DNA of 63,539 nucleotides, filler included, from Reclinomonas americana ATCC 50394 (taxonomy: Eukaryota): the NCBI GenBank assembly GCA_048213135.1. It is 9 parts of 6 records of this genome, joined end to end, with 100 filler letters (N's around TTAATTAATTAA, not from the genome) between each part and the next. Parts side by side here need not be neighbours in the genome. Positions count along the whole stretch, not along the records: positions 24,347 to 32,352 come from PS015260.1; 8 more parts are not named here. One strand, 5' to 3'. Within the stretch, counting starts at the first letter, position 1; every line of letters starts with the position of its first letter. This document shows positions 17,101 to 45,266 of this stretch, piece after piece. The notes under the pieces are model-generated. The model saw only the letters and a list, made by a program, of their open reading frames with translations. It did no database searches and had not been told where the DNA came from. A program made the position numbers and the translations under genes.

Positions 17101-20100
17101 TGAATCGGTGCAGCAGCAAGGCGAACTCGATACGGCGTTGATTGGCGCGCTTGATCTCGTCGTCGTCTTCAAACTGCAGCAGCGAATGAAAGGGGAATAA
17201 GCATGTGATTTGACAACAAGGAGTCATCGAGGTATGATAATGCACGCAACGTTGACGTCTTCTGCAACCTCCTCCACGTCCTCCAACTCATCTGCATGAG
17301 TGGCCGACGACACGAGAGAACGCTCATCCTCCAGCGGCAGGTCAGCAAACGCGGAGCCAGCGGCCGGTGGCGGGCTGACCGGTGGTTCGTCGATGGCGGG
17401 AACGGCGTCGGCTTTGGTGCTGATGAGGCCACTGGAGGGACTGACCATCACGCGACTCACATCCGAGGCCAGCGATGGACTGGTGGCCGAGCGGAGTGTG
17501 GCCAGAGGCACGGAACTGGCACGACGAGCGAGGCGGGCACGCAGATCGTCAATGGCCTGCGGTGTGAACAGGTCGTCGTACGACAGCAGCTTCAGCCACT
17601 CCTCCATCAGCACCAAGTGGAACGGCCGCTCCGTGTCCATGCTGTCGAAAATGTACTGCACATACGACGACAGCAGCGTGTTCTGTCGAGTGCTGTACGA
17701 CAGCGACTGCACCACCGGATCTGCTGCGAACAGAAGAGGGGCCAGGATCAATGCAACGAGGAGAAAAAGTACGCTTCAACAATCACTGCTGCTGTTGCAC
17801 ACACACACCTGCCGACAATGACGAGGAGGACGCAGAGCCCAGCAACTGCCGGCGCGACGATGAAGTCAGCGACGCCGCAGACGGCAGAGTCGGGACCACA
17901 TTGTGCGTTGACACGCCACGCATCAGTCTGATGGACATGGCGAGGGCGCTCGAATCGTCACCACCCGAATCGGCACCTAATACACAACGCGCGCGTGAGT
18001 TCTCAGAGTCAGCAGCATCAACGCTCGAGTGGCTGCAATAACGCACCAGCCGAGGCGACAACGGTGCGACGCTCGCGCTGCATCTCGAGAGCCTTGGCCG
18101 ACTCGCGCAGCAGCGACAGCAAGGTGATGAAGCACGTGCGTTGCACATGGGAAACACTCTCCATGAACTGCGCAGTACAAATGAGAAGCCGTGGTGACGA
18201 CGACCAAAATAGACGGAGCGCACGCACCCGCTGTGATCCACGATCGGGAGGCGAGGCAGCCATGCGGGGCGCCGACAATCCAATGGCCACCGAGTGCCGT
18301 CTGGGCGACGGCTGACTCTCTCCGCCGCTGAATGAGCCGCGCGATGTGGGCGACGAGCCAAGTGCGTTGCGTGGTGAATCCGGCGATCCAGAGAGCATGC
18401 TGATCGGCGCTGCTCCCGCCGTCGGCGGCGATGCCAGTGCGTCAGACAGGCGCAATGGCGGAGTCGAGCCGGAGGGCAGAGAGTTGCGCGGCGAGTTGAG
18501 CGGCGAGTTGCGTGGCGACGACAATTTGACGGTCTCCGACAACTTCTCGGCGAGAGCATGCGTGGTGATCTTTTCCTCCACAGGCTTGGGCGCGGCCGCC
18601 GTGCCTGCGCAGAGCGAACACCAACATGGGGTGAGTGAATGACAATCGAGAAAGAATCAGCTTACGTGGCACACGAACCTTGCAACATGGACGTGAGCAG
18701 CGATGTCATTCGCTCCGGCGCCTTCTCCATCGAGACAAAGGTGGTCGATCTGCGCGATCCGCGGGGTGAAGAAGTGCCGCCAGTCGCTGCAGCAGCGGCC
18801 GCTGCCGTCGCTGCCAGCGGGTTCTGCTGCTCCGGCGTGCTCATGACAGAGTTGCTGCGCGGCGATTCCAGCGAGTCACCGGCAGTGCTGTGCGAACGCT
18901 CTCGCAGGCCGAACGAAAAACGGTGGCCCTGCACGAATCACATGAGCAACGACACATATAAAAAAGAGTGTGGCGCAGGTGAGCATGAATACTTACCGCG
19001 CTCTGGCGCGGCGATGCAGGTCCGCCTGCGCCACTGAGGCCGCGAGTCGGTCTCGGCTGCAACATCAGTGCACCGGCAGCACCGAGCGCACTCAGTGTGG
19101 GAGCATCGGTGGCCGAGCGCGGCGACGCAAGCGACGCCGAGCTGCCGCCGTTCGACTTGATCAGCGACATGGCCTTTTCCGAGGCACTGGCGGCTTGCGG
19201 AGCTGCGCACGGATGTGGAAGGGTGAGCGAAAATATACAAGCGCAGAATAATATGACACAGAGTGGACGCAACGCGAGGTCTGTTGCAGTGCCGCCAGAT
19301 TCAAGGCGGGCACGGGTGATCCCTTTTGCGAGCCGGGCGACGAGAGCGTTGGCGACGTCACTCCAGTCAGGTTGAGTGGCGGAAGGATCGGTGACCGCGA
19401 TTGCGCAGCGACGTTGGCGGGAGGTGAGAAGGCACTGGGCGATGACATGCCCAGTGGCTCCATGCCACCGCCAAAGCCACCACCGCCGCCAGAGCTGCCA
19501 CCTCCGTCGACCATCACCAGGCGAGGCACTTGCGCCATGGTTTGCAACAGCAGATTGAGAAGTACCTACGCCGCCAAGACAGCTTTGAGGAAGGAAGCAG
19601 GAGCAGGGTAGAAGTAAGTCAACATCCACGCAACGGGCAAGTATGGAAGCAGACGTGAAAAGTCGGCCTGACGCAGTCCACTCATCGTCTCGCGACATTG
19701 GCCCAGGGCGGCCTCCAGGAAACGCACATTGCGCTTGCCACGACTGAGCGGAGGAGCAAGATATGAGACGGCAATAGGAAGAGGATCGAGCACAAATCAA
19801 CGCACGTGAATTCCAGCGTGTCGAGAAGCGGAGAGCAGCCACTGTAGAACTTGTTGACCGAATCATCCTGCGGCTGAATGGTGCTGACGAGACGCGTGCG
19901 GCACGTAAACAGCTTGCGACCGCCAGCCACCACCGGACATCTGTGTGAAAGCATGTAAGAGACCACGCACAACCCCACGAGCACGCTACACACGAAACGT
20001 CGAGCGCGGTCCGTGCTCCATGTAACCGGAGAGGAGGCCGGTGTACACCTCCAACTCGTGCTCCTTGTCCGCAATGATGCCCTCCTCGAAAATGGGCATG

Positions 20101-23100
20101 ATGGAGTAACCCAGCAGCGTCTGCAAGTTCCATGAGAAACACAGGAGAAATAGGTGAAAAAAAGAGTCATTACGCGGGCAGCTGACCTTGGTGGCCGGCA
20201 CCAGCTCGTTGGTGCTCACAATGTTGCGGCGACTGCTAATGTTGTAGAACAAGAACAGGAGATGGTGCTTGCGCTGGAACGGCACCGGCAGGTTGACGCG
20301 GAATTCGTCAAAGAACTGCGGGTTGCGCACATTGTAGTGGACCTCCGACTGCGCCATCGGGCAAAACTTGGGCGAGCCGTGCTTTGTGCGGAACGCACTC
20401 AGTGTGCCAGGCAACAGCTCGTCGCCGCCACCGCCCGATGGTGACGGCGGTGCGCCACTGCCATCGCTCCCGGCCAGCGATCCAATCGGGTACGGCAGGT
20501 CATCCGTGTCGCGCAGAATGGCCTGTGCGTGCGCGCGGAAATGAGGTGTGGCGCTGAGATTGCAGCTGGTGCATGTCCGTGCACACTCACCCTCACGAGG
20601 ATGTTCCGTGCATCGCGCACACCGCCAAACCGTGCCACCAACGGGTACACAAAGAGTTCGTGCTGATACGTAAAGTACGGTGTGCGCGGGATGCTGGTGG
20701 GAATCTCCTGCACCAGTGTGTAACTGCGCAGCAGGCGCTCCTCGTACCTAATCACCGCGGAAGGTCGTGGACGATGTGAGCGCGGATGATAATTCAGAGA
20801 TCTAACAATGACGCAACAGGAAACGCTGGTACAGCATTTGCTGCTCGTCGCGGCGACTCTTCTTGGCCAGCTTTCGCAGCGCTTGCTGGGCCTGATCGCA
20901 CACTGATGTAAGACACAAGCTTGACCATGATGAGCATTCGCCGAAATGTGGAACGCACCCTGCCACGCGAGACAACGGCGCCGTCGTCCTCCGCCTCGTC
21001 CTCGGTGGCGGAATCCGAGTCGTCCGAGTCGTCTGCCGCAGCGTCGGGAATGGATGAACCGTTCGCCGACCTGGCGGTTGACTTGCGACGCTTGCGCTTC
21101 TCCTCAGCATCGAGGTCGGCCAGTGTCGCGTCATCAATGTCGGCGGCGATTGGACTGAGGGCGGAGGAGTGCGGTGAGTCCATGGAAGGGAGAAAGAAAG
21201 GAGGACGAATCATGGGGGTTCACGCAACGTGACGCTGAGTGCAATGTGGCCGGGAATCATGCGGAGGTGCATGTCGGCATTGCCCGAGTTGATGTACTCG
21301 CAAAAGTCGAACGGGCGTGATTCGTCCGAGGCCGGAACCTGAGAGGCAGTCGATTAGCAAGGAAAAGTAATCTTGCACGCATACACATTCTTCTTCGTGG
21401 ATCGGCAGTCGCGTGCGCGCGCGCGCGCTCTCTCTCTCTCCCCTCAAAGAACGCTGATTCTCACCTGATACAACGGCCGCAGACGAATGTAGCCCTTGCG
21501 CATGTGCAACCGTTCACCCGGCGACGTGCCCTCCGACGAAATGTCCATGGTGGCGAAATCACGATCCTGCGTGCGACGCGACGCCAGCTCGGCCTCGCGA
21601 TGAAAGAGCGGCAGCGCGGTCCACACAAAGGGCTCGCGGTAGTCGCCGTACTGAATGCACACCTCGCGTGCCTTCAGGCGTGCCATTCTGTTGCATGCGA
21701 GTGAGATTGGTCTTCACCCGAAGAAGCAAGACAACAACAATAACCGCCGCAACTCAGATGGCACAAAGTTCTTGTCCTCGGCTGCCAGCCGCACGGACGT
21801 GTAGGGGCGATGCGTGGTGCTCTCGGGTGCACCCTGCAGCACCTTTTCCACCCACATCACCAGCGCCACTGCGCGGAGGGGGGGGGGGGGGGGGGGGGGC
21901 AGGGAGGGGGGAGGGAGGAGGAGGTGGAGGAGGAGGGAAGGGGGAGGGAAGGGAAGGAAGGGAAAGGGAGAGAGGAAAGGGGAGGAGGAGGAGGAGGAGG
22001 GAGGAGGNNNNNNNNNNNNNNNNNNNNNNNNNNNNNNNNNNNNNNNNNNNNNNNNNNNNNNNNNNNNNNNNNNNNNNNNNNNNNNNNNNNNNNNNNNNNN
22101 NNNNNNNNNNNNNNNNNNNNNNNNNNNNNNNNNNNNNNNNNNNNNNNNNNNNNNNNNNNNNNNNNNNNNNNNNNNNNNNNNNNNNNNNNNNNNNNNNNNN
22201 NNNNNNNNNNNNNNNNNNNNNNNNNNNNNNNNNNNNNNNNNNNNNNNNNNNNNNNNNNNNNNNNNNNNNNNNNNNNNNNNNNNNNNNNNNNNNNNNNNNN
22301 NNNNNNNNNNNNNNNNNNNNNNNNNNNNNNNNNNNNNNNNNNNNNNNNNNNNNNNNNNNNNNNNNNNNNNNNNNNNNNNNNNNNNNNNNNNNNNNNNNNN
22401 NNNNNNNNNNNNNNNNNNNNNNNNNNNNNNNNNNNNNNNNNNNNNNNNNNNNNNNNNNNNNNNNNNNNNNNNNNNNNNNNNNNNNNNNNNNNNNNNNNNN
22501 NNNNNNNNNNNNNNNNNNNNNNNNNNNNNNNNNNNNNNNNNNNNNNNNNNNNNNNNNNNNNNNNNNNNNNNNNNNNNNNNNNNNNNNNNNNNNNNNNNNN
22601 NNNNNNNNNNNNNNNNNNNNNNNNNNNNNNNNNNNNNNNNNNNNNNNNNNNNNNNNNNNNNNNNNNNNNNNNNNNNNNNNNNNNNNNNNNNNNNNNNNNN
22701 NNNNNNNNNNNNNNNNNNNNNNNNNNNNNNNNNNNNNNNNNNNNNNNNNNNNNNNNNNNNNNNNNNNNNNNNNNNNNNNNNNNNNNNNNNNNNNNNNNNN
22801 NNNNNNNNNNNNNNNNNNNNNNNNNNNNNNNNNNNNNNNNNNNNNNNNNNNNNNNNNNNNNNNNNNNNNNNNNNNNNNNNNNNNNNNNNNNGGCAGGGAA
22901 GGGGGAGCAGGGTGAGTGGCAAGGGGGAAGGCGAAGGGGGGAAGACGGAAGGAAAGAAGGAAAAGGGGAAGGAGAGAAGGGGGCAGGGAGAAGGAGGAAG
23001 GGAGAAGGGGGAAGGCTAAGGCAGGAAGAACAAAGAGGAGAAGGAGAGGGCGGGATGATCAAAAAGGAGGAGACGGAAAGGGGAAGGCGAAGGGAGAAAT

Positions 23101-24246
23101 CGAAGAGGGAAGACAAGGGGAAGACAGGAGAAGAGAAAGTGGAGGTTGAGCAAGTGGCAAGAGGATAGAGAAGGCAAGCACCATGGAACGAAGACCGGAA
23201 CGAGATGAATAGAATGTGCTGCTATACGTCCTCCCGCCTCTCTCGCTCTTCATCTCCCTCTCACACACACCTGCTGGATCGGGATTGGTCAGCGAAAAAA
23301 GAGCCCGTGCCACCGACGGTGATCCCGAATCGCGACCAAACTCAAACGCCGTCTGCTGCGCCCCGCTGCTGGTCGGCAGCAAAGTGTTCAGCGAACGCGC
23401 ATTGAGTTGGAAATAAAAGGTCTCCGACAACTTGGCCCGGGTCTTGATGTTGTACAGAGCGAGTCCACAAAACATGGGCTCCAGATCACCCGCCTCGAAC
23501 CACAGTCGGTGCGCCGTGACGACAAACTTGGTGGCACTGCAGCGTCACGCGACCACCAACATTAGAAGATCTCCACGAAAAAGAAAACTCACACATGCTG
23601 ACGCGGACGCAACGCCTTGAGCGGATATGGCGGCACCAATTGGCGATGGCACAGCTCACGCTCGGCGCCACCATTCCACTCCGTGTTGCCGTCAAACAAC
23701 TCAAACACTGGTCGCGAAGAGGTGGCCTGTGGCGAGAGGAGATGAGAGGCGAAGAATGAAGAGAGAGAGAGAGAGAGAATGCTACGCAGGGAGAAACGCA
23801 CCGACTGGAGATCCACAGACTTGTACTTGTTGGTTTTTCTCCGCACGACTTTCCACTCGCCACGAAATAGCCGGAAGCTCTCACGAACGGGTGGTGGCAG
23901 CAGTTTCGGGTCGACATTCTGCAGCAGATAGAAGGGGGCGGTGAGTCTCGCAGGATGTCACAAGAGAATCGACAATGCCGACGGAACTGGAAACTGAAAG
24001 TTCTTGATGGGCATTGGCCGCTCCTCAGCCTCCACCACAATCTTCTCCAACGTGGCGCCGAGAAGGCCCTTGTCTTGAGGTCTTTCGGTGGTGGTGCGGT
24101 CACTGGACAAGTGAGAGAAGAGTGAGAGGCGAACACAATAAGAGCGCGTCTCAATCCGAGAAGAGAGAAGATTCAAGGGAAGAAAGAGGGAGAGACAGGG
24201 CGCGGGAGAGAGAGAAAAAGAGGATGGTCGCGCAAGAACCTCCAAG
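11150..24246 (-). CDS. DOCK-C/D (zizimin-like) scaffold with DHR-1/C2 and ARM region, followed by C-terminal RasGEF_N (REM) + CDC25 RasGEF domain; 5' end truncated
   Basis: DOCK motifs LEPMFCGLALYNIKTRAKLSETFYFQLN, YREPFVWTALPLF, HELFVYP..RNILVRV, SEVHYNVRNPQFFDEFRVNLP..KHHLLFLFYNIS and LFRQHDLDSKY..LAAMYLPLL. RasGEF motifs IRAGTVEKLI, FLTYRSF, EIARQLTLVE, NNLNGVHEI, PPCIPYIGLYFTDLVFLDDG and VNFAK..SLKIEPR. Confidence 0.85.
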
Positions 24247-24346
24247 NNNNNNNNNNNNNNNNNNNNNNNNNNNNNNNNNNNNNNNNNNNNTTAATTAATT
24301 AANNNNNNNNNNNNNNNNNNNNNNNNNNNNNNNNNNNNNNNNNNNN
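24247..24346. other. Artificial scaffold linker
   Basis: N44-TTAATTAATTAA-N44 with stops in all six frames. The same linker occurs at 32353, 39510, 45167, 53205, 57986, 60518 and 62301. Confidence 0.97.
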
Positions 24347-25455
24347 TCAATGTCGGCGGCCAGGCGCATGGTCGGCTTCATAAAGTCGAGATTGCCGTGC
24401 TCCTCTTGCTTCTCCAGCAACTCGGGCCGCGCGGCCCACGAGCTGCAAAAGCACAACGGCGTGCAGCAGAGGAGGAATATGGCACTGCACGGTGGTGATG
24501 AGGCAGAGGAAGGGAGAGAAGAGAGCGAGAGGCAAAAAAAAACGCACCACTGCACAAATCTTATCTGTCGCGCGAGGCTGTTTGCTCGCCGCTGCGTGCA
24601 GTCGGCGAATTGTTGGCGGATGAGCGTGTCGTCGGCCTCGGCCGTCACCGCCAGCCACAATTCGCGCTGCTCCACGCGACCCATGGCCGCCGACAGCTCA
24701 CCGCCGCGCACCTTGTCCCACAGATCGGCCACGTACTNNNNNNNNNNNNNNNNNNNNNNNNNNNNNNNNNNNNNNNNNNNNNNNNNNNNNNNNNNNNNNN
24801 NNNNNNNNNNNNNNNNNNNNNNNNNNNNNNNNNNNNNNNNNNNNNNNNNNNNNNNNNNNNNNNNNNNNNNNNNNNNNNNNNNNNNNNNNNNNNNNNNNNN
24901 NNNNNNNNNNNNNNNNNNNNNNNNNNNNNNNNNNNNNNNNNNNNNNNNNNNNNNNNNNNNNNNNNNNNNNNNNNNNNNNNNNNNNNNNNNNNNNNNNNNN
25001 NNNNNNNNNNNNNNNNNNNNNNNNNNNNNNNNNNNNNNNNNNNNNNNNNNNNNNNNNNNCCCCCGTGTCGAGGCACAGCGCCGAGTTGGACAGGTCGTAG
25101 ATCACGAATGAGGGTGTGGAGCGGTCGCGACGGTGGGCGTCGCGTTGGGCGATTGCGTTTTCGGCGATCCGGCGGAGAACTGCGGGGAGGGGGAAGGGAG
25201 GAGTAAGGGGAAGGGAGGGAGGAGTAAGGGGAAGGGAGGAGAAGGAGGAGGAGGAGGAGGAGGAGGAGGAGGAGGAGGAGGAGGAGGAGGAGGAGGAGGA
25301 GAGGGTGAGAAAGTGAGAGCAGAGCAAGAGAGGAGGTGGAGGAAGAGGAGAATGGGAAGAAAAGGAGAAGAGGAAGAAGAAGAAGAGCAACGACGACGAC
25401 AACAACGGCAGCAGCAGCAGCACAACAGGAATGCGAAAACATAACAACAACAACT

Positions 25456-25538
<83 letters not shown>

Positions 25539-26639
25539 GACAACAACAATAACAACAACGGCAGCAACAGCAGCAAGAGGGAACCGAAGAAGAAAGAGAA
25601 AGAGGAGGAAGGGAAGAAGAAGTTGATGCAGGAAAGAAGTTGATGAAGTGAAGGAGAAGAAGAAGAAGAAGACAAGGAGAATAAGAGGAATGAGGAGACG
25701 AAGAACAACAACAGCAACAACGAAGCAGGAGCAGCAGCAGCAAGAGAAAAACGGAGAAGTAAGAGACAGAGGAGGAGGAGGAGAAGACGATGACGGAGGA
25801 GAAGAAGAAGACGACGAACAACAACAACAACAACAACCACTGCAACAAGAGGAAGCTGAAGGAAAGAAGGCAGAAGAAGAAATCCAAACGAACCATGTTC
25901 AGGCAGCTGCACCGTCACGCCGTCGGCGTACCAGAACATCTGCAGTCAAGAGTTCAGCGCTGCCATCTTGCATCCCTACACAGAAACGTGCGAGCCACAC
26001 CATGCCAGTGCGAATCGTGTCGGTTGCTTGCTGCTGACCCTGCCCGGCGGTCGCCGAGAAACCGACCATCGTGGCCTCGTCCAGTCTCGCCAGCGCGGTC
26101 ATCACTCCCTACACCGAGGCGAGTCAGTGCCTGCTCAACGGCGGCAATGCGTGATACAAGGGCACGCAACAGCAGGCGGCTTGCGATAGGCGCGCGCTGT
26201 CAATTTCACACCCGTGCGCATGAGTCGCTGCGTGAGCCACTCCACCTCGCTCGTGCCGGACGGACGCTGCTCCAGACCGTCCACACGGTACTCCTCCGGC
26301 TGCATGGCTTCGACGGCGGTCGGAGTGCGTGGAGGCACCAGCATGTTGAGAATGAAACTGGTCAGGTTGTGCCACGATTGGATCTCGCGCGTGTGCGGGA
26401 TGCAGGTCGTGCGGTGTGTGCCACGCATTACGGCACGCATCTCCTCGTCTGCGGGTTCTGTGGAGCGGGAGGGTGGAGCGGTGCGGGCGGCCACTGCGGA
26501 CATCCAGTGTGCTGTGGCAGCAAGGGGAGTGAGGTGGGAAAGAGAGAGAGAGGCGGAAGAATGCGCAGATCGAACCGGTTGTGGGAGGGGGAGGGGCAGA
26601 GTCGCGGTCGCCCATACGCTGGTACACGGTGTCTGACAT
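24347..26639 (-). CDS. Hypothetical multi-exon protein, 3' end truncated
   Basis: Exon chain MSDTVYQ|PHWMSAV..RKPPA|GVMTALARLDE..|MFWYADGVTVQLPEH|VLRRIAENAIA..|YVADLWDKV..MRLAADI. No family recognised. Confidence 0.55.
25185..25880. repeat. Compound intronic microsatellite (GAG)n/(CAA)n/(GAC)n/(GAA)n
   Basis: Visible trinucleotide runs lying between two exons of the minus-strand gene. Confidence 0.9.
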
Positions 26640-27103
26640 TCTCTCTCTGCCGTTGCGATGGGTGTCGTGTCAAGAACGTGTCGAGGTGGGGTCGACTTGT
26701 GCATGCGGCGTGGTCGTATTTCGTGATCTATTTCGTTGTTGTGTTCGTTGTTGTGTCCCCTCAATGCATTCAGGGCAACGCGACGTTCAACGTGGAGAAG
26801 AGTTCTGGGCACGCGCACGGTGTGACATGGTTGGTCTGCTTGGTGGCAAGTGAATATTATCCGAACACATTTTTTATGCCATACAGACAGCGCGCGTTTA
26901 ATTAGAACAGAACCTAACCACTCCCCACCTTAAGCTTGTCACTCTACAACAGCACGGCCAGCCTGCACACCTCACATCGAACACAGCCGGCGCTGCAGAA
27001 CATGGGAGACGTGAGAATACAAACAAAAAATGAAGCGCAGTGATGTTCCCAATCGCGACGACCACGGACCTGTCTCTTTCTCAAAAAACGCTGGCTGCGT
27101 CGC

Positions 27104-28100
27104 CTAATGTGCCTCCTGGTCCCAGTGCACAGCCTTGCCCGTCGCCAGAGACCACGCTCGCACAGTTTTGTCCCTGCCACCACCTACGACGTGCTGTCCG
27201 TCGGAAGTGATGGCGACGCAGCTCACCCATTTTGTGTGTCCCTTCAGGCGTCGCACTTGCTGGCCACTTGCCAGCAACCACACACGCACTGTATTGTCGG
27301 TGCTACCAGTCACAACGTACCGACCGTCGGGGGTGACGGCGACAGAGTTCACACTCTTGCTGTGCCCCTCCAGTCGACGCACTTCCTCACCACTCTCCAG
27401 TGACCAAACTCGTGCTACGCTCTCACTACTCCCACTGATGATGTGCTGACCGTCGGGAGTGACGGCGACTGACGACACCCATTCCCGGTGTCTCTCCAAC
27501 TGTCGCATCTCCTTGCCACTCGCCAGGGACCACACTCGCAGAATGCCGTTGCTGCCACTCACAATGTGCTGACTATCGGGGGTAACGGCAACAGCGTACA
27601 CGCCGTCGGCGTGTCCCTCCAGTCGTCGCACTTCTTCTCCACTCGACAGAGACCAGATACGCACGGTGTTGTCTCCGCTGCCACTGACAAGGTGTTGGCC
27701 GTCTGGAGTGATCGCGACAGACAGCACAGGCTTGGTGTGCCCCTCCAGCCGACGCACTTCCTCTCCACTCGCCAGAGACCACACTCGTATCGTTGCGTCG
27801 TAGCTCCCGCTGACGACGTGCTGGCCATCGGGAGTGACAGCTGCACAGGTCACCCCCTAGGCGTGCTTCCCGAGTTGTCGCACATCCTCCCCAGTCGCCA
27901 ACGACCACACATGCAGAGTGCCGTTCTCACAGCCGCTCACAACGAGCCGGCTGTCGGGAGTGATGGTGACGGATTCGACTGCGACCGCGTGTGCCTTTGA
28001 GGACGACGCCCCCTGCACGAACATGGTGAAGCAAATGAGCAGCAGCAACAGCAGTGTGGAAGGAGGTGCAAGAGCGCACTTTCGATGATGATGAACCCAT
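27104..28100 (-). pseudogene. WD40-array gene (~7 repeats) with MGSSSSK N-terminus and an in-frame TAG at 27857-27859
   Basis: A 21-nt first exon (28100-28080) splices to a long exon of ~42-aa repeats GH..V.SVAVTPDGQH.VSGS.D.TVRVWSLASGEEVRRLE. The reading is GKHA*GVTCAAVTPDG. Confidence 0.72.
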
Positions 28101-28754
28101 TTGTCGCAGCGCGCGCGCGCCTGAGAGCCGAGGAGTGCATGCTGTGGGACACTTCTCGCAACAATGCGACAATATCCGGTCAGGCCTCTTGCGGCAGAGT
28201 GCAGGCGACGTCTGTGGTTGATGGCACAAGGTTGTTGCTGATGGTTTTGCGCGGAGAAAACATGCAAATGTACACTGTGCAGCAAACGGGTTGAGAATAC
28301 TGGCGGACATGAACATCTGAAGCACTCACTTGAAGCAGCGCTGCAGCGATGAACCTGCTGATCGCTACAAGCGGCGCTCAGACACCGCACCAAGGAGTCG
28401 TGCTGCCCGTCAACACTGATTGCACCATCGAAGTGCTCACGAGGCTGAAGTCAAGCCGCTGGGTATCAGCGGAGTTTGCGTCCGCCGTACAAGCATGCTG
28501 TCGCTCTCCTTCAACATGGAAAACCCCGTGCACCGAGAAGTGAGTGCCAGAAGAGCACAGACAACTCACAAGAAACTCGGGAACGTGAGCGCCAGAAGTT
28601 TGGCATCACAAGAGAGCCTGCTTCCAAAAGCAGCCCAACTTAAAGGAACGGGTCACCATCGACCCAACATGTAAGAATCATCAAGTTTAGTATTCCTCTG
28701 AATACAAACAGACAAACAAGCTAGAGCACTACCTCACTCTTTGCCGGCATAAAC

Positions 28755-31700
28755 TCATCCCACAATCAACGTAAACTGCCCACACGCCTCGCGCACCGCC
28801 CGCATCACCTCCAGCACCTCCTGCGCCACCGGCCGGTCCCGGCGCAAACTCATGCACCGCATGCCAAGCTCGAACATGGGCTCGGCGATGCGCGCCGTCC
28901 ATTCCACGCCCTCGCCGGCGTCTACCAGCTCCATTGTGTGGATAGAGGCAGGTTGCCGATCCCACGCACTCGACCACTCGCGCACACTGCTCACCGCCTT
29001 GCCGGTGACCAGTTGCAGGAGCACAATGCCCATGGAGAATACGTCGCTTTCGGGCTGCGGGCTTCGCGAGTGCATGTGCAGTGGGTCCATGTAGTCCAGT
29101 GTGCCAACGGCGGTGGTGGTCTGTGTGATGCCAGAGAAGAGAGTGAGTGGGCGAAAAACAGCAGGGAATGCCAAGCAATAACAAGACCTTGCCACCGGCG
29201 ATGGACCGCGCAANNNNNNNNNNNNNNNNNNNNNNNNNNNNNNNNNNNNNNNNNNNNNNNNNNNNNNNNNNNNNNNNNNNNNNNNNNNNNNNNNNNNNNN
29301 NNNNNNNNNNNNNNNNNNNNNNNNNNNNNNNNNNNNNNNNNNNNNNNNNNNNNNNNNNNNNNNNNNNNNNNNNNNNNNNNNNNNNNNNNNNNNNNNNNNN
29401 NNNNNNNNNNNNNNNNNNNNNNNNNNNNNNNNNNNNNNNNNNNNNNNNNNNNNNNNNNNNNNNNNNNNNNNNNNNNNNNNNNNNNNNNNNNNNNNNNNNN
29501 NNNNNNNNNNNNNNNNNNNNNNNNNNNNNNNNNNNNNNNNNNNNNNNNNNNNNNNNNNNNNNNNNNNNNNNNNNNNNNNNNNNNNNNNNNNNNNNNNNNN
29601 NNNNNNNNNNNNNNNNNNNNNNNNNNNNNNNNNNNNNNNNNNNNNNNNNNNNNNNNNNNNNNNNNNNNNNNNNNNNNNNNNNNNNNNNNNNNNNNNNNNN
29701 NNNNNNNNNNNNNNNNNNNNNNNNNNTGCCAAAGTCACCGAGGCACGGTTCCAGCCGGTGGTCCAGCAGTATGTTGGAGGGCTTGATGTCGCGGTGCACC
29801 ACGTTGTTCTGCGATGGGATGGACGAGTGGTGAAACTCAGGGGGGAGGAGGAGACAGACTGTTCCGTCTCTCACAGACCTTGTGCAAGAATGCCACAGCC
29901 TCGGCCAGTCCGAGCCCAATCTGCACGCGCTGAACGACAGAGAGTGGCGCACGGCCGGCACGCGGAAGAAGAAGCAGATCATCCAGACTTTGGGCCCTGC
30001 GTGCGCTTCGTGGATGAGCGAGGCAAGAGGACTGGAGGGAACTACTAAGACGCACTCGAGGGCCTTGTACACCAGGCAGCGCTCCTGATCGTCGCCCACT
30101 GAGTAGCCGACGAGAGGGACAATGCGACGATGTTGAAGGCGACCGAGAGTTGCGACCTTTGCGAATTCGAAGATGGGTGAGGAAACGGAAGGAGAACAGA
30201 GACAGAATGGTTGCAGACCTCGCTCTCGAACGACTCCATCGTCCACGGTGCAGCAGGATCGAGCACCTTGATGGCCACATGCATCTCGTGCAGCACGGTG
30301 ATGTAAACTGCGCCCTGACCACCCGAGCCGACCTTGAGGTGAGGAGAGAAGGCGTCGGTGGCTTGCACGATCTCGAGCCACTCGAAGCGCTGNNNNNNNN
30401 NNNNNNNNNNNNCACCGAGGTGTCGACTGTAGAATGGAGTGAGATGCATGCAGACTGAGAGACAAAGAGGAGAGGAGTCAGACCTTGGGTGAGAAGCAGC
30501 TCTTGCCGCAGTTGGGGGACAAGCCGATCGCTTGCCTCCAGTCGCGCAGCGAGGTCGTCCTTGTCTTGCAGGGCAACAGACAACTGTTGGACGACAGTGG
30601 AAAGCTGAGAAGCGATTTGGTCTCGTTCAGCTTGCAGTTGTTGTGCGTGGTGCTCCGAAATCGAAAGTTGTTGACGGGTGGTGGAGAGCTCAGTCTGGAG
30701 TTGATTCACGGTAGTGCGTTCAACTTGCAGCTGTGACTCGGTAGCAGCCAGTTGTTGACGGGTGGTAGAAAGTTGAGCGGTGACGGCATCGTGCTGCTGT
30801 CGAGCGGCCTGGAGTTGTGTGGCAAACTGGTCGCGTTCTGTTCGCAGCTGTGCGTCGAGCTCGGCAAGGCGTGCAGTTGATGACTGATCGGGGACTACGA
30901 CTGCTGCTGAAGCGGACGGCGGCGTTGACGGCCCGACGAGTGCGCGGACTGATTGCTGGCGGGGTGTCGCCGCGGTGTCGGTGCTAAGTCCGGAACTGAA
31001 AACTGCAGAGACAACGGGTGTGAGAAACCAAATCAAAATTGGAACGTAAGTGGCGTACCTACCTCGAACAGTGTAGTCGAAACTCCCACTTATTATGTGC
31101 TGACCATCGGGCGAGACGGCCACAGACCACACTTCATTGGTGTGCCCCTGTAACCGTCGCACTTTCTTGCCCGTCGCCAGTGACCACACTCGCACTGCGT
31201 TACTGCCGCTGACAATGTGCTGGCCGTCGGGAGTGACAGCGACACCAGACACTCTGTGGTTACCTTCAAACCGTCGCACNNNNNNNNNNNNNNNNNNNNN
31301 NNNNNNNNNNNNNNNNNNNNNNNNNNNNNNNNNNNNNNNNNNNNNNNNNNNNNNNNNNNNNNNNNNNNNNNNNNNNNNNNNNNNNNNNNNNNNNNNNNNN
31401 NNNNNNNNNNNNNNNNNNNNNNNNNNNNNNNNNNNNNNNNNNNNNNNNNNNNNNNNNNNNNNNNNNNNNNNNNNNNNNNNNNNNNNNNNNNNNNNNNNNN
31501 NNNNNNNNNNNNNNNNNNNNNNNNNNNNNNNNNNNNNNNNNNNNNNNNNNNNNNNNNNNNNNNNNNNNNNNNNNNNNNNNNNNNNNNNNNNNNNNNNNNN
31601 NNNNNNTTCTTCTCCACTCGCCAGTGACCACACTCGTACCGTCATGTCCCAGCTCGCACTTATTACGTGCTGGCCATCGGGAGTAATGACGACTGAGATC

Positions 31701-32331
31701 ACCTGATCGGTGTGTCCAGCTAACTGTCTAACCTGTTGCCCCGTCGCAAATGACCACACAAGCACTGGGCCATTCTGACTGCCACTGACGATGTGCTGAC
31801 CATCGGGAGTGACGGCGACACAATTCCAGGCACCAATGCCTCCCTCCAATCGTCGCACTTGCTCTCCACTTGCCAGTGAGCACACTCGCACTGTGCAATC
31901 GATACTACCACTGACGCAGTGCTGACCATCCGGGGTGACAACAATGCAAAGCACTTGGTCAGAATGTGCCTGCAGTCGCCTCACTTCCATCCCGCTTGCA
32001 ACGGACCACACTCGTATTGTCTTGTCAGCACTCCCACTCAGAACGTGCTGCCCATCGGGAGTGATGGCGACTGAAAGCACCTCATTCACTCTTTCTGGAT
32101 TCCGCAAGCAACGCACTTCTCGCCCACGGGCCAGAGACCACAGTCGCACGGTGCCGTCCAAACTCCCACTAACGATGTGCTGACAATCGGGAGTGACAGC
32201 GACAGAAGACACCCTTCCAGTGTGTCCCTCAAGTACCTGCAACATGCAAGCTGAGACGCGCAAACACACACAGAGAGAGAGAGAGAGAAGGAATGAGCGC
32301 CAAAACGCACTTTTGTCGCCGATGCACCCAT
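28755..32331 (-). CDS. MGASATK N-terminus + WD40 array + coiled coil + Pelle/IRAK/RLK-type protein kinase
   Basis: Seven visible WD40 repeats plus a 327-nt gap, then a Q-rich coiled coil. Kinase motifs: RFEWLEIVQATDAFS, VGSGGQGAVY, VAIKVL, LQHRRIVPLVGY, CLVY, RVQIGLGLAEAVAFLH, VHRDIKPSNILLD, DFG, GTLDYMDP, SDVFSMGIVLLQLVTG. Confidence 0.88.
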
Positions 32332-32882
32332 TCTCTACTGTGTAGCGCTTGCNNNNNNNNNNNNNNNNNNNNNNNNNNNNNNNNNNNNNNNNNNNNTTAA
32401 TTAATTAANNNNNNNNNNNNNNNNNNNNNNNNNNNNNNNNNNNNNNNNNNNNGTGTGTGACAAGCCAGGACTCTTATTTGCGTGAAGTTGCAAGTCCACC
32501 AACTCACGCGCATGCGACCTAACTAGCCGGACAGTAGTGATAATTGCAGATGCCACTACGAAGGCGAGAACAGGCGCACGAAAGTCGAGCATACGTTGGT
32601 TCTCTGAAGCTTGTATTTCACGAGCAGAATACAGATGCGTGAAGAGCAGAGAGGAAAGTCACAGGGTGCAACGACTGAGTCGTGGGGTGACCTGTCGAGA
32701 GTCAAACAGCAAGGACAGGAGCCTCTCCTCGAGATGAGAACCGTGATATCTCCGGCTGAATCAGCAGCCGCCACATTCGAACACCTGATGAAGAGAGCCG
32801 TCCCCTCCGCTGCTGTCCATTCCCCTCTAAGCAGAGCCCACAGAGTACCCGTTTGGAGAAAGCATAACCTATACTCCCTCAA

Positions 32883-34175: not shown

Positions 34176-35360
34176 TTAGTAGCCCTCCGGGGTGGCGGTG
34201 TCGAAACCAGCCGGGGCCTGGTACTGGCCAGCAGAGCCCTCCCAGGTGTTCGAGGCATCAGCCCAGTCGCTGCTGCCAGCGTACGCGCTAGCATCTACGT
34301 CAACATAGAGAAGTCAGACGTTTGACGACACCTTTCGAGGATGTGTAAAGAAAGACGAACCGACAAGAGCGTGAGCGTCGACCTCCTCGAAGCCGGCGGC
34401 GGCGGCGGCACCCTCGGCCTCAGCCTGAGCCTTCTCCACCTCTTCCGGATCACGGTAGAAGAAGAGATCGGCCTGCACAACACAACAATGAGAGGAGAGA
34501 AAGAAGAGGAGAAGACTCTTCATCATCATCTCGTCACCTTGACGTCCCACGGGATGGCGCGGGAGACACCGCCGCGCAGGCGGAGGACCTCACGGGTCAG
34601 GAACCAGTAGAGGATACCGACCGAGTTCTTGGCCTTGTTGTTGCACGGGATGGCCACATCGACGTACTCCATCGGCGAGTCACTGTCGCAGAAGGCAATG
34701 ACCGGGATGTTCATGTAGGCCGCCTCGAGAATGGCCTGGTGGTCCATCTTCGGGTTGGTCACAATGATCAGGCGCGGCTCCGCGAAGCGCTTCTGGATCT
34801 GGTTGGTGAAGGTACCAGGAGTGAAGCGACCAGCCAAGCTAAAGAGAGAAGAGTGATGAGAAATGGCGAGATTGCTGAATGAAGAGAGGGTGGAGTGAGA
34901 CGCACTTGCTGGCACCAGTGTAGTGCGAGAACTTGAGCACGGCGCGCTGGCCCCAAGTGCCGGCGGCAATCGCGCACACATCAGCCGGGTTCTGCGTGTG
35001 TGAGTGTGAGTGGACATGACTCGCTCGCTCTTCTCTCTCTTCATCAAACAAACCTCAATCGACACAATGATGCGGGCAGCGAGCATCAGCTTCTCCCACG
35101 TGCGGCCGAGGTGGATGATGTTGGCGCCTGCGTGGTGGAAAGGGGGAGGGAGGCGCACATGTCATGTGCATGTCGCTCACCATGTCACACACACTCTCTC
35201 ACACACAAAGCTACGCACTGTCGGCACGCTGGTTCCAGATGTAGCGGGCCATCTGCGACTCGCACTTCTTGGCACCAATGTGCACCTGGCACGCCATCAA
35301 GCGCTGAATGTCATCTTCCGTGGGCGCAAGCACACGATCTCCGTTGGACGCAAGGCTCAT
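34176..35360 (-). CDS. RPSA: 40S ribosomal protein SA (uS2)
   Basis: [48 protein letters not shown] and [10 protein letters not shown] over six coding exons. A probable 5'UTR intron lies at ~35385-35455. Confidence 0.98.
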
Positions 35361-38600: not shown

Positions 38601-39357
38601 CACATGGCGGCGATGGAGTTGCACCAGGTGGCCGTCGATGCTCTGCCGCGGGGCACTGCTGGAGGTGTTGGTGCGTTTCTTCTCCTCTCGTGTATTCTTC
38701 TTCTTCGCCTGGCCTTAACTCGTGGTCGTCACAGGCGCCGCTGGCGAAGATCCCGATTTCCTGGCTGTCAGCCTGGCGATTGCACGCAAGGACGGCGACG
38801 CCATCAATCCGCGCTTGCGATCCGTGTTTTCTCGCCAGTTTATCGCCGGCTTGCGTCAGGGCTCTGGCAAGGAGACACTGGTCACCGGCGGCACGTATGT
38901 CGGGTACTGGCAGGACGGACTGCGCCACGGCTTTGGCACGTTTACGTGGCCCGACGGACAGACCGAGCAGTTGTTCTACCAGAACGGACGATTGATGCAC
39001 AGTTGCGTCGCTGAAGTCCATGCGTTCTCTTGTGTGAATTGACGCTGACTTTGGCGTACTGAAAATGGCAGTGAGGACGTGTGGAGTCTCCACAGCGCCC
39101 GCCATGATGTCGCCACCATCCGGGGGCATGTCGGCGGCGACGCCTGGCATGGCCGATCGACATGCTCTCGGCACTGCAGAGGTGCGGTGGGGAGAGAGAG
39201 AGAGAGCGAGAGAGGGAGAGAGAAGGAGAGAGAAGGAGAGAGGAAGGAATGGAGAGAGGAGACAGTGTGGGGGGAGCGAGAGGGGGAGAGAGAGGGAAAG
39301 TGACAAGAGGAGAGAGAGAGGGGGGACAGCAAGAGGGAGGAAATGAGTAGACGGAGC

Positions 39358-39509: not shown

Positions 39510-39609
39510 NNNNNNNNNNNNNNNNNNNNNNNNNNNNNNNNNNNNNNNNNNNNTTAATTAATTAANNNNNNNNNNNNNNNNNNNNNNNNNNNNNNNNNNN
39601 NNNNNNNNN

Positions 39610-42660: not shown

Positions 42661-42924
42661 GTGCTGCATGCCGCCAACCTCGATCCGAGTGTGGTCGGTG
42701 CCGTGACACAAAAGCTGGACGACGTGCTGGAGGAGAAGAATGCCGAAATTGGCGACCTCACCGAGCGCCTGGCGCAAGTCACCAAGGCCCACAACGACGT
42801 GATTCGTGTGTACGAGGAGAAGCTCAGGCAAAGCGGCATCCCCATCGAGGACCTCGGCTTCCGACCGCTCATCGCCCGCAATGTCCAACTGGGCGAGGGT
42901 CCGGCCGGCCTGGTCACCGGATGA
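42661..42924 (+). CDS. GAS8: GAS8/DRC4 C-terminal exon
   Basis: VLHAANLDP..KLDDVLEEKN..KAHNDVIRVYEEKL..GIPIEDLGFRP. Confidence 0.9.
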   Translation: MLHAANLDPSVVGAVTQKLDDVLEEKNAEIGDLTERLAQVTKAHNDVIRVYEEKLRQSGIPIEDLGFRPLIARNVQLGEGPAGLVTG

Positions 42925-45108: not shown

Positions 45109-45266
45109 GTGAGTGAGATAGGCGTCAGGACCGCCTTCACCATTTTGGCTGATTGTGTGCGTTCGGNNNNNNNNNNNNNNNNNNNNNNNNNNNNNNNNNN
45201 NNNNNNNNNNTTAATTAATTAANNNNNNNNNNNNNNNNNNNNNNNNNNNNNNNNNNNNNNNNNNNN

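What the first reader, a model, noticed from the sequence alone, without database searches (positions are those of the whole stretch)
28755..32331. Predicted myristoylated WD40-array / coiled-coil / Pelle-IRAK kinase: candidate intracellular sensor kinase
Seen in sequence: a 21-nt exon encoding MGASATK, then highly similar ~42-aa WD40 repeats that vary mainly at a few positions (after GH and after SGS), a Q-rich coiled coil, and a kinase with intact VAIK/HRD/DFG. The kinase carries RLK/Pelle hallmarks (F...EI..AT..FS, CLVY, R..I..G.A....FLH, GT..YMDP). Established: MGxxx(S/T)K is the N-myristoylation consensus; near-identical variable WD40 arrays are the recognition domains of fungal HET-E/NWD NLRs; IRAK/Pelle/RLCK kinases transduce immune signals in animals and plants. 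Inference: a membrane-tethered, one-chain non-self receptor with no TM or NACHT domain. I do not know this architecture from described systems.
Basis: partly seen in the sequence, partly recalled or inferred. Interest (0 to 1): 0.82.

Follow-up and report, generated by a model that had tools for sequence, protein, structure and literature searches.

The report
WD40, coiled-coil, plant-type kinase gene
A gene of an unidentified flagellate protist joins a WD40 propeller and a long coiled coil to an active kinase most like plant receptor-like cytoplasmic kinases; the layout is unusual but not unique, and nothing yet shows an immune role.

Summary
There are nine exons separated by 57-74-nt GT-AG introns. 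They encode a 21-nt MGASATK start exon, seven visible WD40 repeats, a 38-residue linker, a 132-residue helix and a kinase with all catalytic motifs.

Caveats:
- The window is a chain of small draft scaffolds.
- The gene holds three assembly gaps, whose flanks are all in register.
- The start codon lies 21 nt from a scaffold end.
- No RNA data were available.

Every kinase exon finds only RLK/Pelle/IRAK chains first in the PDB. The best full-domain relatives (34-37% identity) are plant U-box kinases (PUB-VI/RLCK-IXb), which also have a long helix before the kinase. This gene has WD40 where they have UspA, and it has no U-box. Chara braunii proteins already in databases have WD40 before a kinase of that clade, so the layout is not unique.

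The repeats are 43-70% identical, not near-identical, and show no sign of concerted evolution. Their four most variable columns (7, 9, 25, 27) are the propeller's top-face positions.

A same-strand WD40-only paralogue shares the MG micro-exon, which supports that exon. A rival ATG next to exon 2 remains.

Most likely this is a cytosolic, possibly myristoylated, dimerising signalling kinase. The non-self receptor role is unsupported.

The parts
32311..32331 (-). Predicted exon 1: ATG plus 18 nt, reading MGASATK, followed by a GTGCGT donor. An in-frame TAG lies two codons upstream. The scaffold ends 21 nt upstream.
   Evidence: It is a conserved island shared with the neighbour's MGSSSSK exon. 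No RNA evidence.
32237..32310 (-). Intron 1, 74 nt, GT-AG. It holds a rival in-frame ATG 9 nt before the acceptor, which would give MLQ|VLEGH.
31063..32236 (-). Exon 2: WD40 repeats, five before and two after the assembly gap 31280-31606. The gap flanks read ..SGEE | VRRF.., in repeat register.
   Evidence: Pfam; repeat alignment; flanks.
31003..31062 (-). Intron 2, 60 nt, GT-AG, with no stop in frame. Splicing gives TVR-V-FS, which matches the repeat consensus TVRVWS. Read-through would give a 17-residue hydrophobic stretch (KD 2.02).
30484..31002 (-). Exon 3: a disordered S/T/P/A linker of about 38 residues, then one 132-residue Gln-rich helix with heptad periodicity. No Met.
   Evidence: Pfam coiled-coil families, e.g. 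Cep57_CLD_2 at 7.9e-12.
30219..30426 (-). Exon 4: 14 nt, then the 20-N gap (30393-30412), then the kinase N-lobe with the F..EI..AT..FS motif, Gly loop and VAIK.
30056..30156 (-). Exon 5: kinase alpha-C to hinge (..LVYKAL..).
29879..29996 (-). Exon 6: kinase subdomains V-VIa (R..I..G.A....FLH).
29727..29808 (-). Exon 7: HRDIKPSN and DFG. It ends one base into a codon at the edge of the 513-N gap (29214-29726).
29188..29213 (-). Exon 8 fragment after the gap: two bases that complete the split codon, then ARSIAGGK (activation segment).
28755..29120 (-). Exon 9: kinase C-lobe (TTTAVGTLDYMDP .. DRP ..) and the TGA stop at 28755-28757.
27104..28100 (-). Neighbouring paralogue, not part of the gene. 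It has a 21-nt MGSSSSK exon (28080-28100), a 67-nt intron and seven WD40 repeats (28012-27107) with an in-frame TAG at 27857-27859. It has no coiled coil and no kinase.
   Evidence: AlphaFold2 gives a seven-blade propeller, pLDDT 92.2.

Best explanation
This is one protein-coding gene of an unidentified flagellate eukaryote. Its product is about 755 residues if the three assembly gaps hold no coding sequence, and longer if the WD gap hides whole repeats.

The order of parts is:
- a short N-terminus, probably MGASATK and then probably N-myristoylated;
- a WD40 beta-propeller with seven visible blades;
- a disordered linker;
- a roughly 130-residue coiled-coil stalk;
- an active RD-type Ser/Thr kinase of the RLK/Pelle/IRAK kind. 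Its closest relatives are the plant PUB-VI/RLCK-IXb kinases.

Inferred mechanism, by analogy:
1. The protein is cytosolic, with at most weak, reversible membrane contact through the myristate.
2. The propeller's top face binds a partner protein or peptide. That face is built from the variable residues after GH and after SGS.
3. The stalk pairs two chains, as proposed for PUB33.
4. Pairing lets the kinases phosphorylate each other's activation loop (the T-T-T run before GT..YMDP) and then downstream targets.

Shown here: the domains, their order, intact catalytic motifs and the family likeness. Inferred only: dimerisation, ligand binding, lipidation and any biological role.
For: Gene model:
- The seven gap-free introns are 57-74 nt and all GT-AG. 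Exon GC is 59% against 47-59% in introns.
- Splicing restores kinase colinearity, and the spliced model has no stop (757 positions).
- All three gap flanks are in register. Across the kinase gap, DFG plus a split codon plus ARS gives the DFG-x-AR pattern also seen in plant relatives.
- No Met occurs between blade 5 and the Gly loop.

Domains:
- Pfam WD40 at 7.7e-47; Pkinase on exons 7 and 9.
- A helix over residues 39-170 at pLDDT 89-98, with heptad signal.

Kinase family, PDB searches by single exon:
- Exon 9: the first 47 of the 60 rows shown are plant RLK/RLCK or IRAK4 chains (two carry only generic names). SymRK is best at 1.3e-5; the first other family is PknB at 0.025.
- Exon 4b: the first 11 of 15 rows.
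- Exon 5: 37 of 37 rows.
- Exon 6: 1 of 1 row, IRAK1, weak.

Kinase family, other searches:
- Atlas: 30 of 30 nearest clusters are Streptophyta PK_Tyr_Ser-Thr clusters, score 0.95. The N-lobe exon behaves likewise at 0.93.
- An exhaustive HMMER search with exon 9 was re-scored with the spliced domain. The 11 best proteins and the 14th were scanned, and 12 of 12 carry a U-box after the kinase. Nine of the ten clusters looked up have named plant or green-algal members; four are named as U-box proteins (PUB51, PUB52/53, PUB33-like) or as RING-type E3 ligases, the rest only as hypothetical proteins of plants.
- Identity to these is 34-37% over 273-302 residues.
- PUB-VI/RLCK-IXb proteins have a long alpha-helical domain before the kinase that is predicted to dimerise (preprint 10.64898/2026.02.10.704836, passages read).

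Propeller: the paralogue folds as seven blades (pLDDT 92.2, pTM 0.89).

Micro-exon: conserved island, p 3.7e-5.
Against: - No transcript evidence of any kind.
- The join between coiled coil and kinase crosses a 20-N scaffold gap, and the two kinase lobes are joined across a 513-N gap. The single chain therefore rests on scaffolding plus in-register flanks.
- No relative with E below 1e-30 exists among 1.84 billion representatives, and none in metagenome contigs. No orthologue confirms the model.
- In the tree the kinase sits on a long branch (1.12) as sister to all 56 plant hits with weak support (89/73). It is not inside RLCK-IXb.
- The tree held no animal IRAK or other TKL kinases, so clade membership was not tested by phylogeny.
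- A rival start ATG is conserved in both paralogues.
- The neighbour carries an in-frame stop, so the locus may be in decay.
- Dimerisation was not tested.
Confidence: 0.6

Rival explanations
1. One reading: a membrane-tethered, single-chain intracellular non-self sensor. Hypervariable WD40 blades recognise foreign ligands, as in fungal HET-E/NWD NLRs, and signal directly through an IRAK-like kinase.
For: - The WD40 repeats belong to the consensus-like class used by STAND/NLR-type proteins. The best database relatives of the repeats include fungal NACHT-WD40 and bacterial TIR- or nSTAND-WD40 proteins.
- The four most variable columns (25, 7, 9, 27, around conserved 8 and 26) match the codons under positive selection in Podospora HNWD repeats (PMC1805685, passages), if my register is theirs.
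- There is a tandem WD40-only paralogue.
- Plant RLCK-IXb kinases are tied to immunity (PMC12803775, listing and start of abstract).
Against: - The repeats are 43-70% identical, against 'up to 100%' in HNWD.
- Identity within the gene equals identity to the paralogue, so there is no concerted evolution.
- Third codon positions are 50% identical, so the duplications are old.
- Blade-to-blade variation at top-face positions is generic to WD40 propellers.
- Only one paralogue was seen, and the genome is not held.
- The ranking favours long arrays by summed score.
- No population data and no expression data.
Confidence: 0.08
2. Assembly or annotation artefact. A WD40-coiled-coil gene and a separate kinase gene (or gene fragments) were brought together by mis-scaffolding of a draft assembly. 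Alternatively, the locus is a decaying pseudogene.
For: - There are three N gaps inside the gene, and the window as a whole is a chain of small gap-rich scaffolds.
- The neighbour has an in-frame TAG.
- No orthologue was found.
Against: - The flanks of all three gaps are on the same strand, in order and in register.
- The kinase-gap flanks complete one codon and give the canonical DFG-x-AR.
- The kinase exon after the 20-N gap starts mid-ORF with no Met.
- Plant relatives have the same helix-then-kinase order.
- No stop occurs in any of the nine exons.
Confidence: 0.12
3. Same protein, but translation starts at the ATG just before exon 2 (MLQVLEGH..). There would then be no micro-exon and no lipid anchor, and the protein would be purely soluble.
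For: - Both paralogues keep an in-frame ATG 6-9 nt upstream of the exon-2 boundary.
- The micro-exon lies 21 nt from the scaffold end, so its promoter and 5' UTR are unseen.
Against: - The micro-exon plus donor is a conserved island (21 of 27 against 29 of 89 columns, p 3.7e-5).
- The donor GTGCG recurs at intron 5, and the intron length of 74 nt fits the 57-74 range.
- An unspliced transcript that included the upstream ATG would open an 82-codon out-of-frame ORF.
Confidence: 0.15
4. Receptor kinase through retention of intron 2. Read-through inserts a 17-residue hydrophobic segment between propeller and stalk, giving WD40-TM-coiled coil-kinase.
For: The 60-nt intron is a multiple of three with no stop. 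Its translation has KD 2.02 over 17 residues.
Against: - The boundaries are canonical GT-AG, and the size matches the other six introns.
- Splicing restores the repeat consensus TVR-V-xS, while read-through breaks it.
- There is no signal peptide for a 300-residue N-terminal ectodomain.
- An open 20-codon frame of length divisible by three is expected by chance about one time in eight (my estimate).
Confidence: 0.03

Closest known systems
Plant PUB-VI / RLCK-IXb kinases (Arabidopsis PUB32-35 and PUB50-53; hits P0283, P0307, P0360 and others)
   Same: - Best full-domain kinase matches, 34-37% identity.
- Same N-lobe motif (..F.W.EIV.AT..FS..LKVG.G..) and the same DFG-I-x-R and GT..YMDP segments.
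- A long alpha-helical, coiled-coil-like stalk directly before the kinase.
   Different: - The N-terminal domain is WD40, not UspA.
- No U-box after the kinase or downstream.
- The kinase is not nested in their clade in my tree.
- The host organism is probably not a plant. RasGEF and an ependymin-like gene are in the window; that plants lack these is recalled, not tested.
Chara braunii hypothetical proteins GBG83112.1 (P0245) and GBG83357.1 (P0256)
   Same: - WD40 propeller N-terminal to an RLK-type kinase (Pfam).
- One collinear BLAST alignment covers model 165-745 against P0245 146-731, E 1e-26.
- Their kinases lie inside the U-box/RLCK-IXb clade (99/84).
   Different: - Only 22% identity.
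- Their WD40 begins with a motif that I recall as coatomer-like, not the consensus-like repeat found here.
- They have two or three kinase units per predicted protein.
- Their N-termini, MGD.. and MAG.., do not fit the myristoylation pattern.
- They are uncharacterised.
Bacterial PkwA-type Ser/Thr kinase-WD40 proteins (Thermomonospora curvata PkwA, PDB 5yzv)
   Same: - The WD40 propeller of the paralogue is closest to 5yzv: TM 0.90-0.94, 39% identity.
- In the list of WD40 relatives, 26 of 120 proteins also carry a kinase.
   Different: - The order is reversed; the kinase is N-terminal in 24 of those 26.
- Their kinases form a separate clade (100/99).
- They have no coiled-coil stalk.
Fungal HET-E / NWD NLR-like STAND proteins
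   Same: - Same class of 42-residue WD40 repeat.
- The same four variable positions, 7, 9, 25 and 27.
   Different: - No NACHT or HET domain.
- Repeats are 43-70% identical, not up to 100%, with no concerted evolution.
- The effector here is a kinase.
Animal IRAK/Pelle kinases (IRAK4, IRAK1)
   Same: The kinase exons match IRAK4 and IRAK1 chains among their first PDB hits.
   Different: - No death domain.
- Plant RLKs score as well or better.
LRRK2 / ROCO kinases (recalled, not tested)
   Same: A TKL-group kinase in one chain with a WD40 propeller.
   Different: - In those proteins WD40 is C-terminal and ROC-COR is present.
- No ROC-COR domain was found here.
- No LRRK2 chain appears among the PDB rows shown.

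Membership tests
RLK/Pelle/IRAK kinase family | Catalytic domain most similar to RLK/Pelle/IRAK members rather than to other kinase groups | tested here: met
   PDB phmmer by exon:
- Exon 9: first 47 of 60 rows shown.
- Exon 4b: first 11 of 15 rows.
- Exon 5: 37 of 37 rows.
- Exon 6: 1 of 1 row.

Atlas: 30 of 30 clusters are Streptophyta RLK-type.

The best full-domain hits are plant RLCK-IXb.
RLK/Pelle/IRAK kinase family | Falls inside the RLK/Pelle/IRAK clade in a tree that includes other TKL families and IRAKs | not tested
   No IRAK or other TKL sequences could be obtained. The tree holds only plant hits and bacterial outgroups.
RLK/Pelle/IRAK kinase family | Intact catalytic motifs (Gly loop, VAIK Lys, alpha-C Glu, HRD, DFG) | tested here: met
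   Read directly in the exon translations.
Plant PUB-VI/RLCK-IXb | Long alpha-helical domain immediately N-terminal to the kinase | tested here: met
   Helix over residues 39-170 of the exon-3 product. Family description from the preprint passages.
Plant PUB-VI/RLCK-IXb | UspA domain at the N-terminus | tested here: not met
   Pfam finds WD40 only.
Plant PUB-VI/RLCK-IXb | U-box C-terminal to the kinase (defines PUB-VI; 9 of the 20 Arabidopsis RLCK-IXb proteins have it) | tested here: not met
   A TGA stop follows the kinase. tblastn with 5 U-boxes gives a best E of 0.034, inside the coiled coil. No Pfam domain in 28100-28760.
Plant PUB-VI/RLCK-IXb | Kinase nested within the RLCK-IXb clade | tested here: inconclusive
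   The query is sister to all 56 plant hits with 89/73 support. It is excluded from the 36-row clade of other RLKs (98/96). It sits on a long branch of 1.12.
Fungal HET-E/NWD NLRs | NACHT (STAND) NTPase domain | tested here: not met
   No such Pfam hit on any exon.
Fungal HET-E/NWD NLRs | Repeats nearly identical within and between genes (concerted evolution) | tested here: not met
   Identity is 43-70% within the gene and 30-69% to the paralogue. Nucleotide identity averages 63%, and third positions 50%. In Podospora identity reaches 100%.
Fungal HET-E/NWD NLRs | Positive selection at codons 7, 9, 25 and 27 | not testable with these tools
   The same columns are the most variable. Selection cannot be measured because there are no orthologues or alleles and synonymous sites are near saturation.
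Bacterial PkwA-type STK-WD40 | Hanks-type kinase N-terminal to the WD40 domain | tested here: not met
   The order is reversed here. The bacterial kinases form a separate clade, 100/99.
N-myristoylated proteins | Mature N-terminus Gly2, with a small uncharged residue at 3 and Ser/Thr at 6 (PROSITE-type pattern, recalled) | tested here: inconclusive
   MGASATK and the paralogue's MGSSSSK both fit the pattern. Whether this is the real N-terminus is unknown, since there is no RNA evidence and a rival ATG exists.

The most novel reading that the evidence does not exclude
A non-plant protist lineage carries the plant-type RLCK-IXb stalk-plus-kinase core, fused to a STAND-style WD40 recognition propeller and lipid-anchored. 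It sits in tandem with a WD40-only copy that acts as decoy or adaptor. Together they would form a one-chain cytosolic pattern or effector sensor that needs no NLR. This would also push the origin of the RLK/Pelle stalk-kinase module back before the plant lineage.
Probability: 0.07. Interest if true: 0.8.

Novelty: new variant of a known kind. Interest (0 to 1): 0.4.

Why it matters
If the gene model holds, it shows the helix-plus-kinase core of the plant U-box kinases (RLCK-IXb) outside that family's usual frame. Here a WD40 propeller takes the place of the UspA domain and there is no U-box. The organism's other genes (RasGEF, DOCK, GAS8, ependymin-like) do not look plant-like.

Together with the Chara WD40-kinases, this suggests that the N-terminal input domain of this kinase lineage has been exchanged more than once. 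That bears on how RLK/Pelle kinases acquired their sensing domains, and on how old the lineage is.

It does not by itself reveal a new immune system. The interest lies in kinase evolution and is moderate until the organism, the transcript and the paralogue family are known.

Tried and rejected
Searches and look-ups that gave nothing:
- Whole genome: none is held, so there was no paralogue census.
- RNA runs: no RNA holder was listed.
- The search for homologous proteins with kinase exon 9, longer proteins: none at E 1e-3 or better among 316 candidates.
- Metagenome scan with exon 9: 113 pattern matches, none confirmed.
- Rfam and tRNA scans of the window: nothing.
- Complex prediction for a coiled-coil homodimer was never accepted. 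Dimerisation is therefore untested.

Taxon: a ribosomal protein SA fragment gave at most 77% identity. Named hits were scattered over oomycetes, diatoms, jakobids, an ichthyosporean and animals. The taxon remains unresolved.

Ideas considered and rejected:
- A U-box exon downstream of the stop.
- A second kinase in the window.
- TAG as a sense codon. There is one internal TAG, in the neighbour only. The neighbour also ends in TAG, and reading on adds about 50 residues with no likeness.
- The N runs being masks over real coding sequence. The flanks abut in register.

Other points:
- A first tree without an outgroup placed the query without support.
- dN/dS over the repeats was not attempted. 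There are 14 short units, no orthology, and third positions are 50% identical.
- The kinome-tree preprint 10.1101/2020.01.27.920793 (passages) gave nothing usable on IRAK.
- Two paper searches for WD40 together with RLCK or RLK-Pelle in algae or protists returned nothing pertinent. One gave 0 papers. The other gave 4 papers, none on such a fusion judging by title and abstract start.
- Supplements of the bioRxiv preprints were closed and not seen. The RLCK-IXb trees in those supplements might bear on placement.


Full report
**Setting.** The window is not one stretch of chromosome. It is nine pieces joined by eight identical 100-bp linkers (44 N, TTAATTAATTAA, 44 N), and it holds many further N runs. 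The finding lies on the 8006-bp piece 24347-32352, on the minus strand. No whole genome is held, earlier notes were closed, and no RNA run could be listed. Everything below therefore rests on the sequence and on comparison.

**Gene model.**
- Reading the minus strand gives nine exons: 32331-32311, 32236-31063, 31002-30484, 30426-30219, 30156-30056, 29996-29879, 29808-29727, 29213-29188 and 29120-28755 (TGA).
- The seven introns without N are 57-74 nt, all GT-AG. Their donors are GTGCGT, GTAGGT, GTCTGA, GTCTGC, GTGCGT, GTCTGT and GTCTTG.
- Exon GC is 59%, against 47-59% in introns.
- The spliced model, computed with X at each gap, has 757 positions and no stop.

**The three assembly gaps.** Three gaps lie inside the gene, and in each the flanks are in register.
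- The WD gap separates ..SGEE from VRRF.., the same point of the repeat that reads SGEEVRRL in the neighbour.
- The 20-N gap lies between two codon boundaries.
- The 513-N gap splits one codon between DFG and ARSIAGGK. The plant relatives read DFG-I/L-C-R at that place.
- The gaps therefore probably hide little or no coding sequence, except that the WD gap could hide whole 126-nt repeats.
- The weak point is that the coiled coil is joined to the kinase, and the N-lobe to the C-lobe, only through scaffolding.

**One chain or two.**
- The contig 31279-30413 carries two WD40 repeats, intron 2, the linker, the whole helix and the first 14 nt of exon 4. WD40 and stalk are therefore physically linked.
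- That contig has no in-frame Met. The first Met of the kinase lies after the Gly loop. An intact kinase therefore cannot be translated without the upstream exons.
- Intron 2 is 60 nt and open in frame, and its translation would be hydrophobic (KD 2.02 over 17 residues). Splicing, however, gives TVR-V-FS, which completes the repeat consensus TVRVWS. I take it to be an intron.
- The spliced model has no TM-like stretch (maximum KD over 19 residues is 1.47).

**The start.**
- ATGGGT...AAA|GTGCGT at 32331-32305 encodes MGASATK. An in-frame TAG lies two codons upstream, and the scaffold ends 21 nt upstream.
- The same-strand neighbour has ATGGGT...AAA|GTGCGC (MGSSSSK) 67 nt before its own WD40 exon.
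- Aligned, micro-exon plus donor is a conserved island: 21 of 27 columns identical against 29 of 89 in the flanks, Fisher p 3.7e-5.
- Both peptides fit the N-myristoylation pattern as I recall it (Gly2, small residue at 3, Ser/Thr at 6, not Pro at 7).
- Against this, both genes also keep an in-frame ATG 6-9 nt before the acceptor (MLQ|VLEGH; MFVQ|GASSSK), and there is no RNA evidence.
- I put the micro-exon at a little over one half.
- Even if the protein is myristoylated, there is no Cys and only one Lys nearby, so 'tethered' overstates it (recalled knowledge of myristoyl-only anchors).

**The propeller.**
- Pfam WD40 scores 7.7e-47.
- Seven 42-residue units are visible in the gene and seven in the neighbour.
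- The neighbour's exon 2, read with X at its TAG, folds as a seven-blade propeller (pLDDT 92.2, pTM 0.89). Its best solved match is the WD40 domain of the bacterial kinase PkwA (5yzv, TM 0.90-0.94, 39% identity).
- Pairwise identity between repeats is 43-70% inside the gene and 30-69% to the neighbour. Repeats group neither by gene nor by position.
- Nucleotide identity over 24 ungapped codons averages 63% (51-79%, 91 pairs). Third positions average 50%.
- The four most variable columns are 25, 7, 9 and 27, around conserved columns 8 and 26. By the secondary structure of the model they lie in the loops after GH and after SGS. By established knowledge of WD40 folds these loops form the top face.

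**Comparison with Podospora.** Paoletti et al. (PMC1805685, passages read) report positive selection at codons 7, 9, 25 and 27 around conserved 8 and 26 in the Podospora HNWD repeats. The pattern here is the same, if my register (unit starting LEGH) is theirs. In Podospora, however, the repeats are up to 100% identical and evolve in concert, which is not the case here. The step from that to diversifying selection is not supported and cannot be tested on these data.

**Relatives of the repeats.**
- The nearest database relatives are fungal NACHT-WD40 proteins and bacterial TIR-, nSTAND- and kinase-WD40 proteins, at no more than 55% identity.
- That ranking sums scores over many repeats and so favours long arrays.
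- 26 of the 120 listed proteins carry a kinase. It is N-terminal in 24 of them.

**The stalk.**
- The exon-3 product is disordered over residues 1-38 and forms one helix over 39-170 (pLDDT 89-98).
- It is 19% Gln and 15% Leu, with one Pro and no Gly.
- Hydrophobic residues recur at lags 4, 7 and 14.
- A dimer prediction could not be run because the queue stayed full.

**The kinase, family evidence.**
- All catalytic motifs are present.
- Searched exon by exon against the PDB, every exon finds RLK/Pelle/IRAK chains first:
  - Exon 9: the first 47 of the 60 rows shown, SymRK 1.3e-5, then LysM-RLK, IRAK4, BIK1, BRI1, CERK1 and BAK1. The first other family is PknB at 0.025.
  - Exon 4b: the first 11 of 15 rows.
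  - Exon 5: 37 of 37 rows.
  - Exon 6: 1 of 1 row, weak.
- The ESM Atlas gives only Streptophyta PK_Tyr_Ser-Thr clusters: 30 of 30 at score 0.95 for exon 9, and a top score of 0.93 for exon 4b.
- An exhaustive HMMER search with exon 9 found 568 proteins at E 1e-3 or better, 28 at 1e-10 or better, and none at 1e-30 or better.

**The kinase, nearest relatives.**
- The 150 listed proteins were re-scored in the box with the spliced domain. The best are proteins of 470-920 residues.
- I scanned the 11 best and the 14th, and 12 of 12 have a U-box after the kinase.
- Nine of the ten clusters looked up have named plant or green-algal members, including PUB51 of Tarenaya, PUB52/53 of Selaginella and a PUB33-like protein of Tetraselmis. 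One cluster is unnamed.
- Identity is 34-37% over 273-302 residues, and the N-lobe motifs run in parallel.
- A second paper links them to immunity (PMC12803775, listing and start of abstract only).
- The window's gene has the helix and the kinase, WD40 in place of UspA, and no U-box.

**Tree.**
- It has 67 rows: the query, the 56 of the 150 HMMER hits whose domain covers at least 230 of 288 query positions, and the 10 best of the 13 usable bacterial kinases from the list (domain covering at least 170 positions) as outgroup. The remaining 94 HMMER hits were dropped for coverage.
- The method was IQ-TREE with LG+G4.
- The query is sister to all plant hits with weak support (89/73) and sits on a long branch.
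- It is excluded from the 36-row clade of other RLKs (98/96) and is nearest by path length to the U-box proteins.
- No IRAK or other TKL sequence could be included. Membership of the RLK/Pelle clade therefore rests on best hits, not on phylogeny.

**Is the layout new?**
- Two Chara braunii proteins among the HMMER hits (GBG83112.1 and GBG83357.1) have WD40 before the kinase, in two or three units per predicted protein.
- One BLAST alignment runs collinearly from propeller to kinase (E 1e-26, 22% identity).
- Their kinases nest in the U-box clade (99/84).
- WD40 followed by an RLCK-IXb-type kinase therefore exists in databases, uncharacterised, with a different kind of WD40.
- My paper searches for such a fusion found nothing pertinent.
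- The Phytophthora infestans kinome paper (PMC3019232, passages) lists five IRAK-class TKLs, four with a TM domain and all predicted inactive. It lists one WD40 kinase, in the OTHER group. IRAK-like kinases in protists are thus known, but not this form.

**Organism.**
- The window also encodes RasGEF, DOCK-C2, ribosomal protein SA, MORN, GAS8-like and ependymin-like pieces.
- The SA fragment is at most 77% identical to anything in the protein collection, and the named hits are scattered.
- It is a flagellate eukaryote of a poorly sampled lineage, probably not a plant. That plants lack RasGEF and ependymin is recalled, not tested.

**Verdict.**
- The gene is most likely real and single-chain (about 0.75 on architecture).
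- The kinase is RLK/Pelle-like and closest to plant RLCK-IXb (about 0.85 for the broad family).
- The lipid anchor is about even odds.
- The non-self sensor reading is speculative (about 0.08).
- It is a new variant of a known kind, of moderate interest for kinase evolution.

Noticed in passing
whole window; linkers at 24247-24346, 32353-32452, 39510-39609, 45167-45266, 53205-53304, 57986-58085, 60518-60617, 62301-62400: The window is nine small scaffolds concatenated with 44N+TTAATTAATTAA+44N linkers, plus 18 further N runs of 20-964 nt. Neighbouring pieces are not neighbours in the genome.
   Followed up: yes
27104-28100 (-): A tandem WD40-only paralogue with its own MGSSSSK micro-exon and seven blades. 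It carries an in-frame TAG at 27857-27859, in blade 2. This could be a pseudogene, a sequencing error, or a truncated adaptor or decoy.
   Followed up: partly
29214-29726, 30393-30412, 31280-31606: All three assembly gaps inside the gene have flanks that continue the reading frame exactly. The stated gap sizes therefore look spurious, or in the WD array equal whole repeats.
   Followed up: partly
11153-12532 (-): RasGEF domain in two ORF pieces (Pfam 2.5e-27 and 9.9e-26).
   Followed up: no
19989-20747 (-): DOCK-type C2 (DHR-1) domain, Pfam 1.8e-16. ORFs nearby at 23062-23544 look like more of the same gene by eye.
   Followed up: no
34529-35161 (-): Exon of ribosomal protein SA (uS2). It is at most 77% identical to any protein in the collection, so the organism's lineage is poorly sampled.
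   Followed up: partly
42628-44044 (both strands listed): GAS8-like (growth-arrest-specific microtubule-binding) pieces, which suggests a flagellate organism. A MORN repeat lies at 38719-39039 (+).
   Followed up: no
55737-56324 (-): Weak ependymin-like match (Pfam 8.8e-06, below the curated cut-off).
   Followed up: no
25060-25950: About 900 nt of trinucleotide-type low complexity. It is open in several frames as runs of E, S, V, T, N, D and L.
   Followed up: no
62512-63537 (-): Another WD40-containing ORF (Pfam WD40 3.1e-06). It is not similar to the repeats studied here (no tblastn hit).
   Followed up: no
P0245 and P0256 (Chara braunii GBG83112.1, GBG83357.1): Predicted proteins with two or three successive WD40-plus-kinase units. 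They may be tandem genes fused by annotation. Their kinases nest in the U-box kinase clade.
   Followed up: partly
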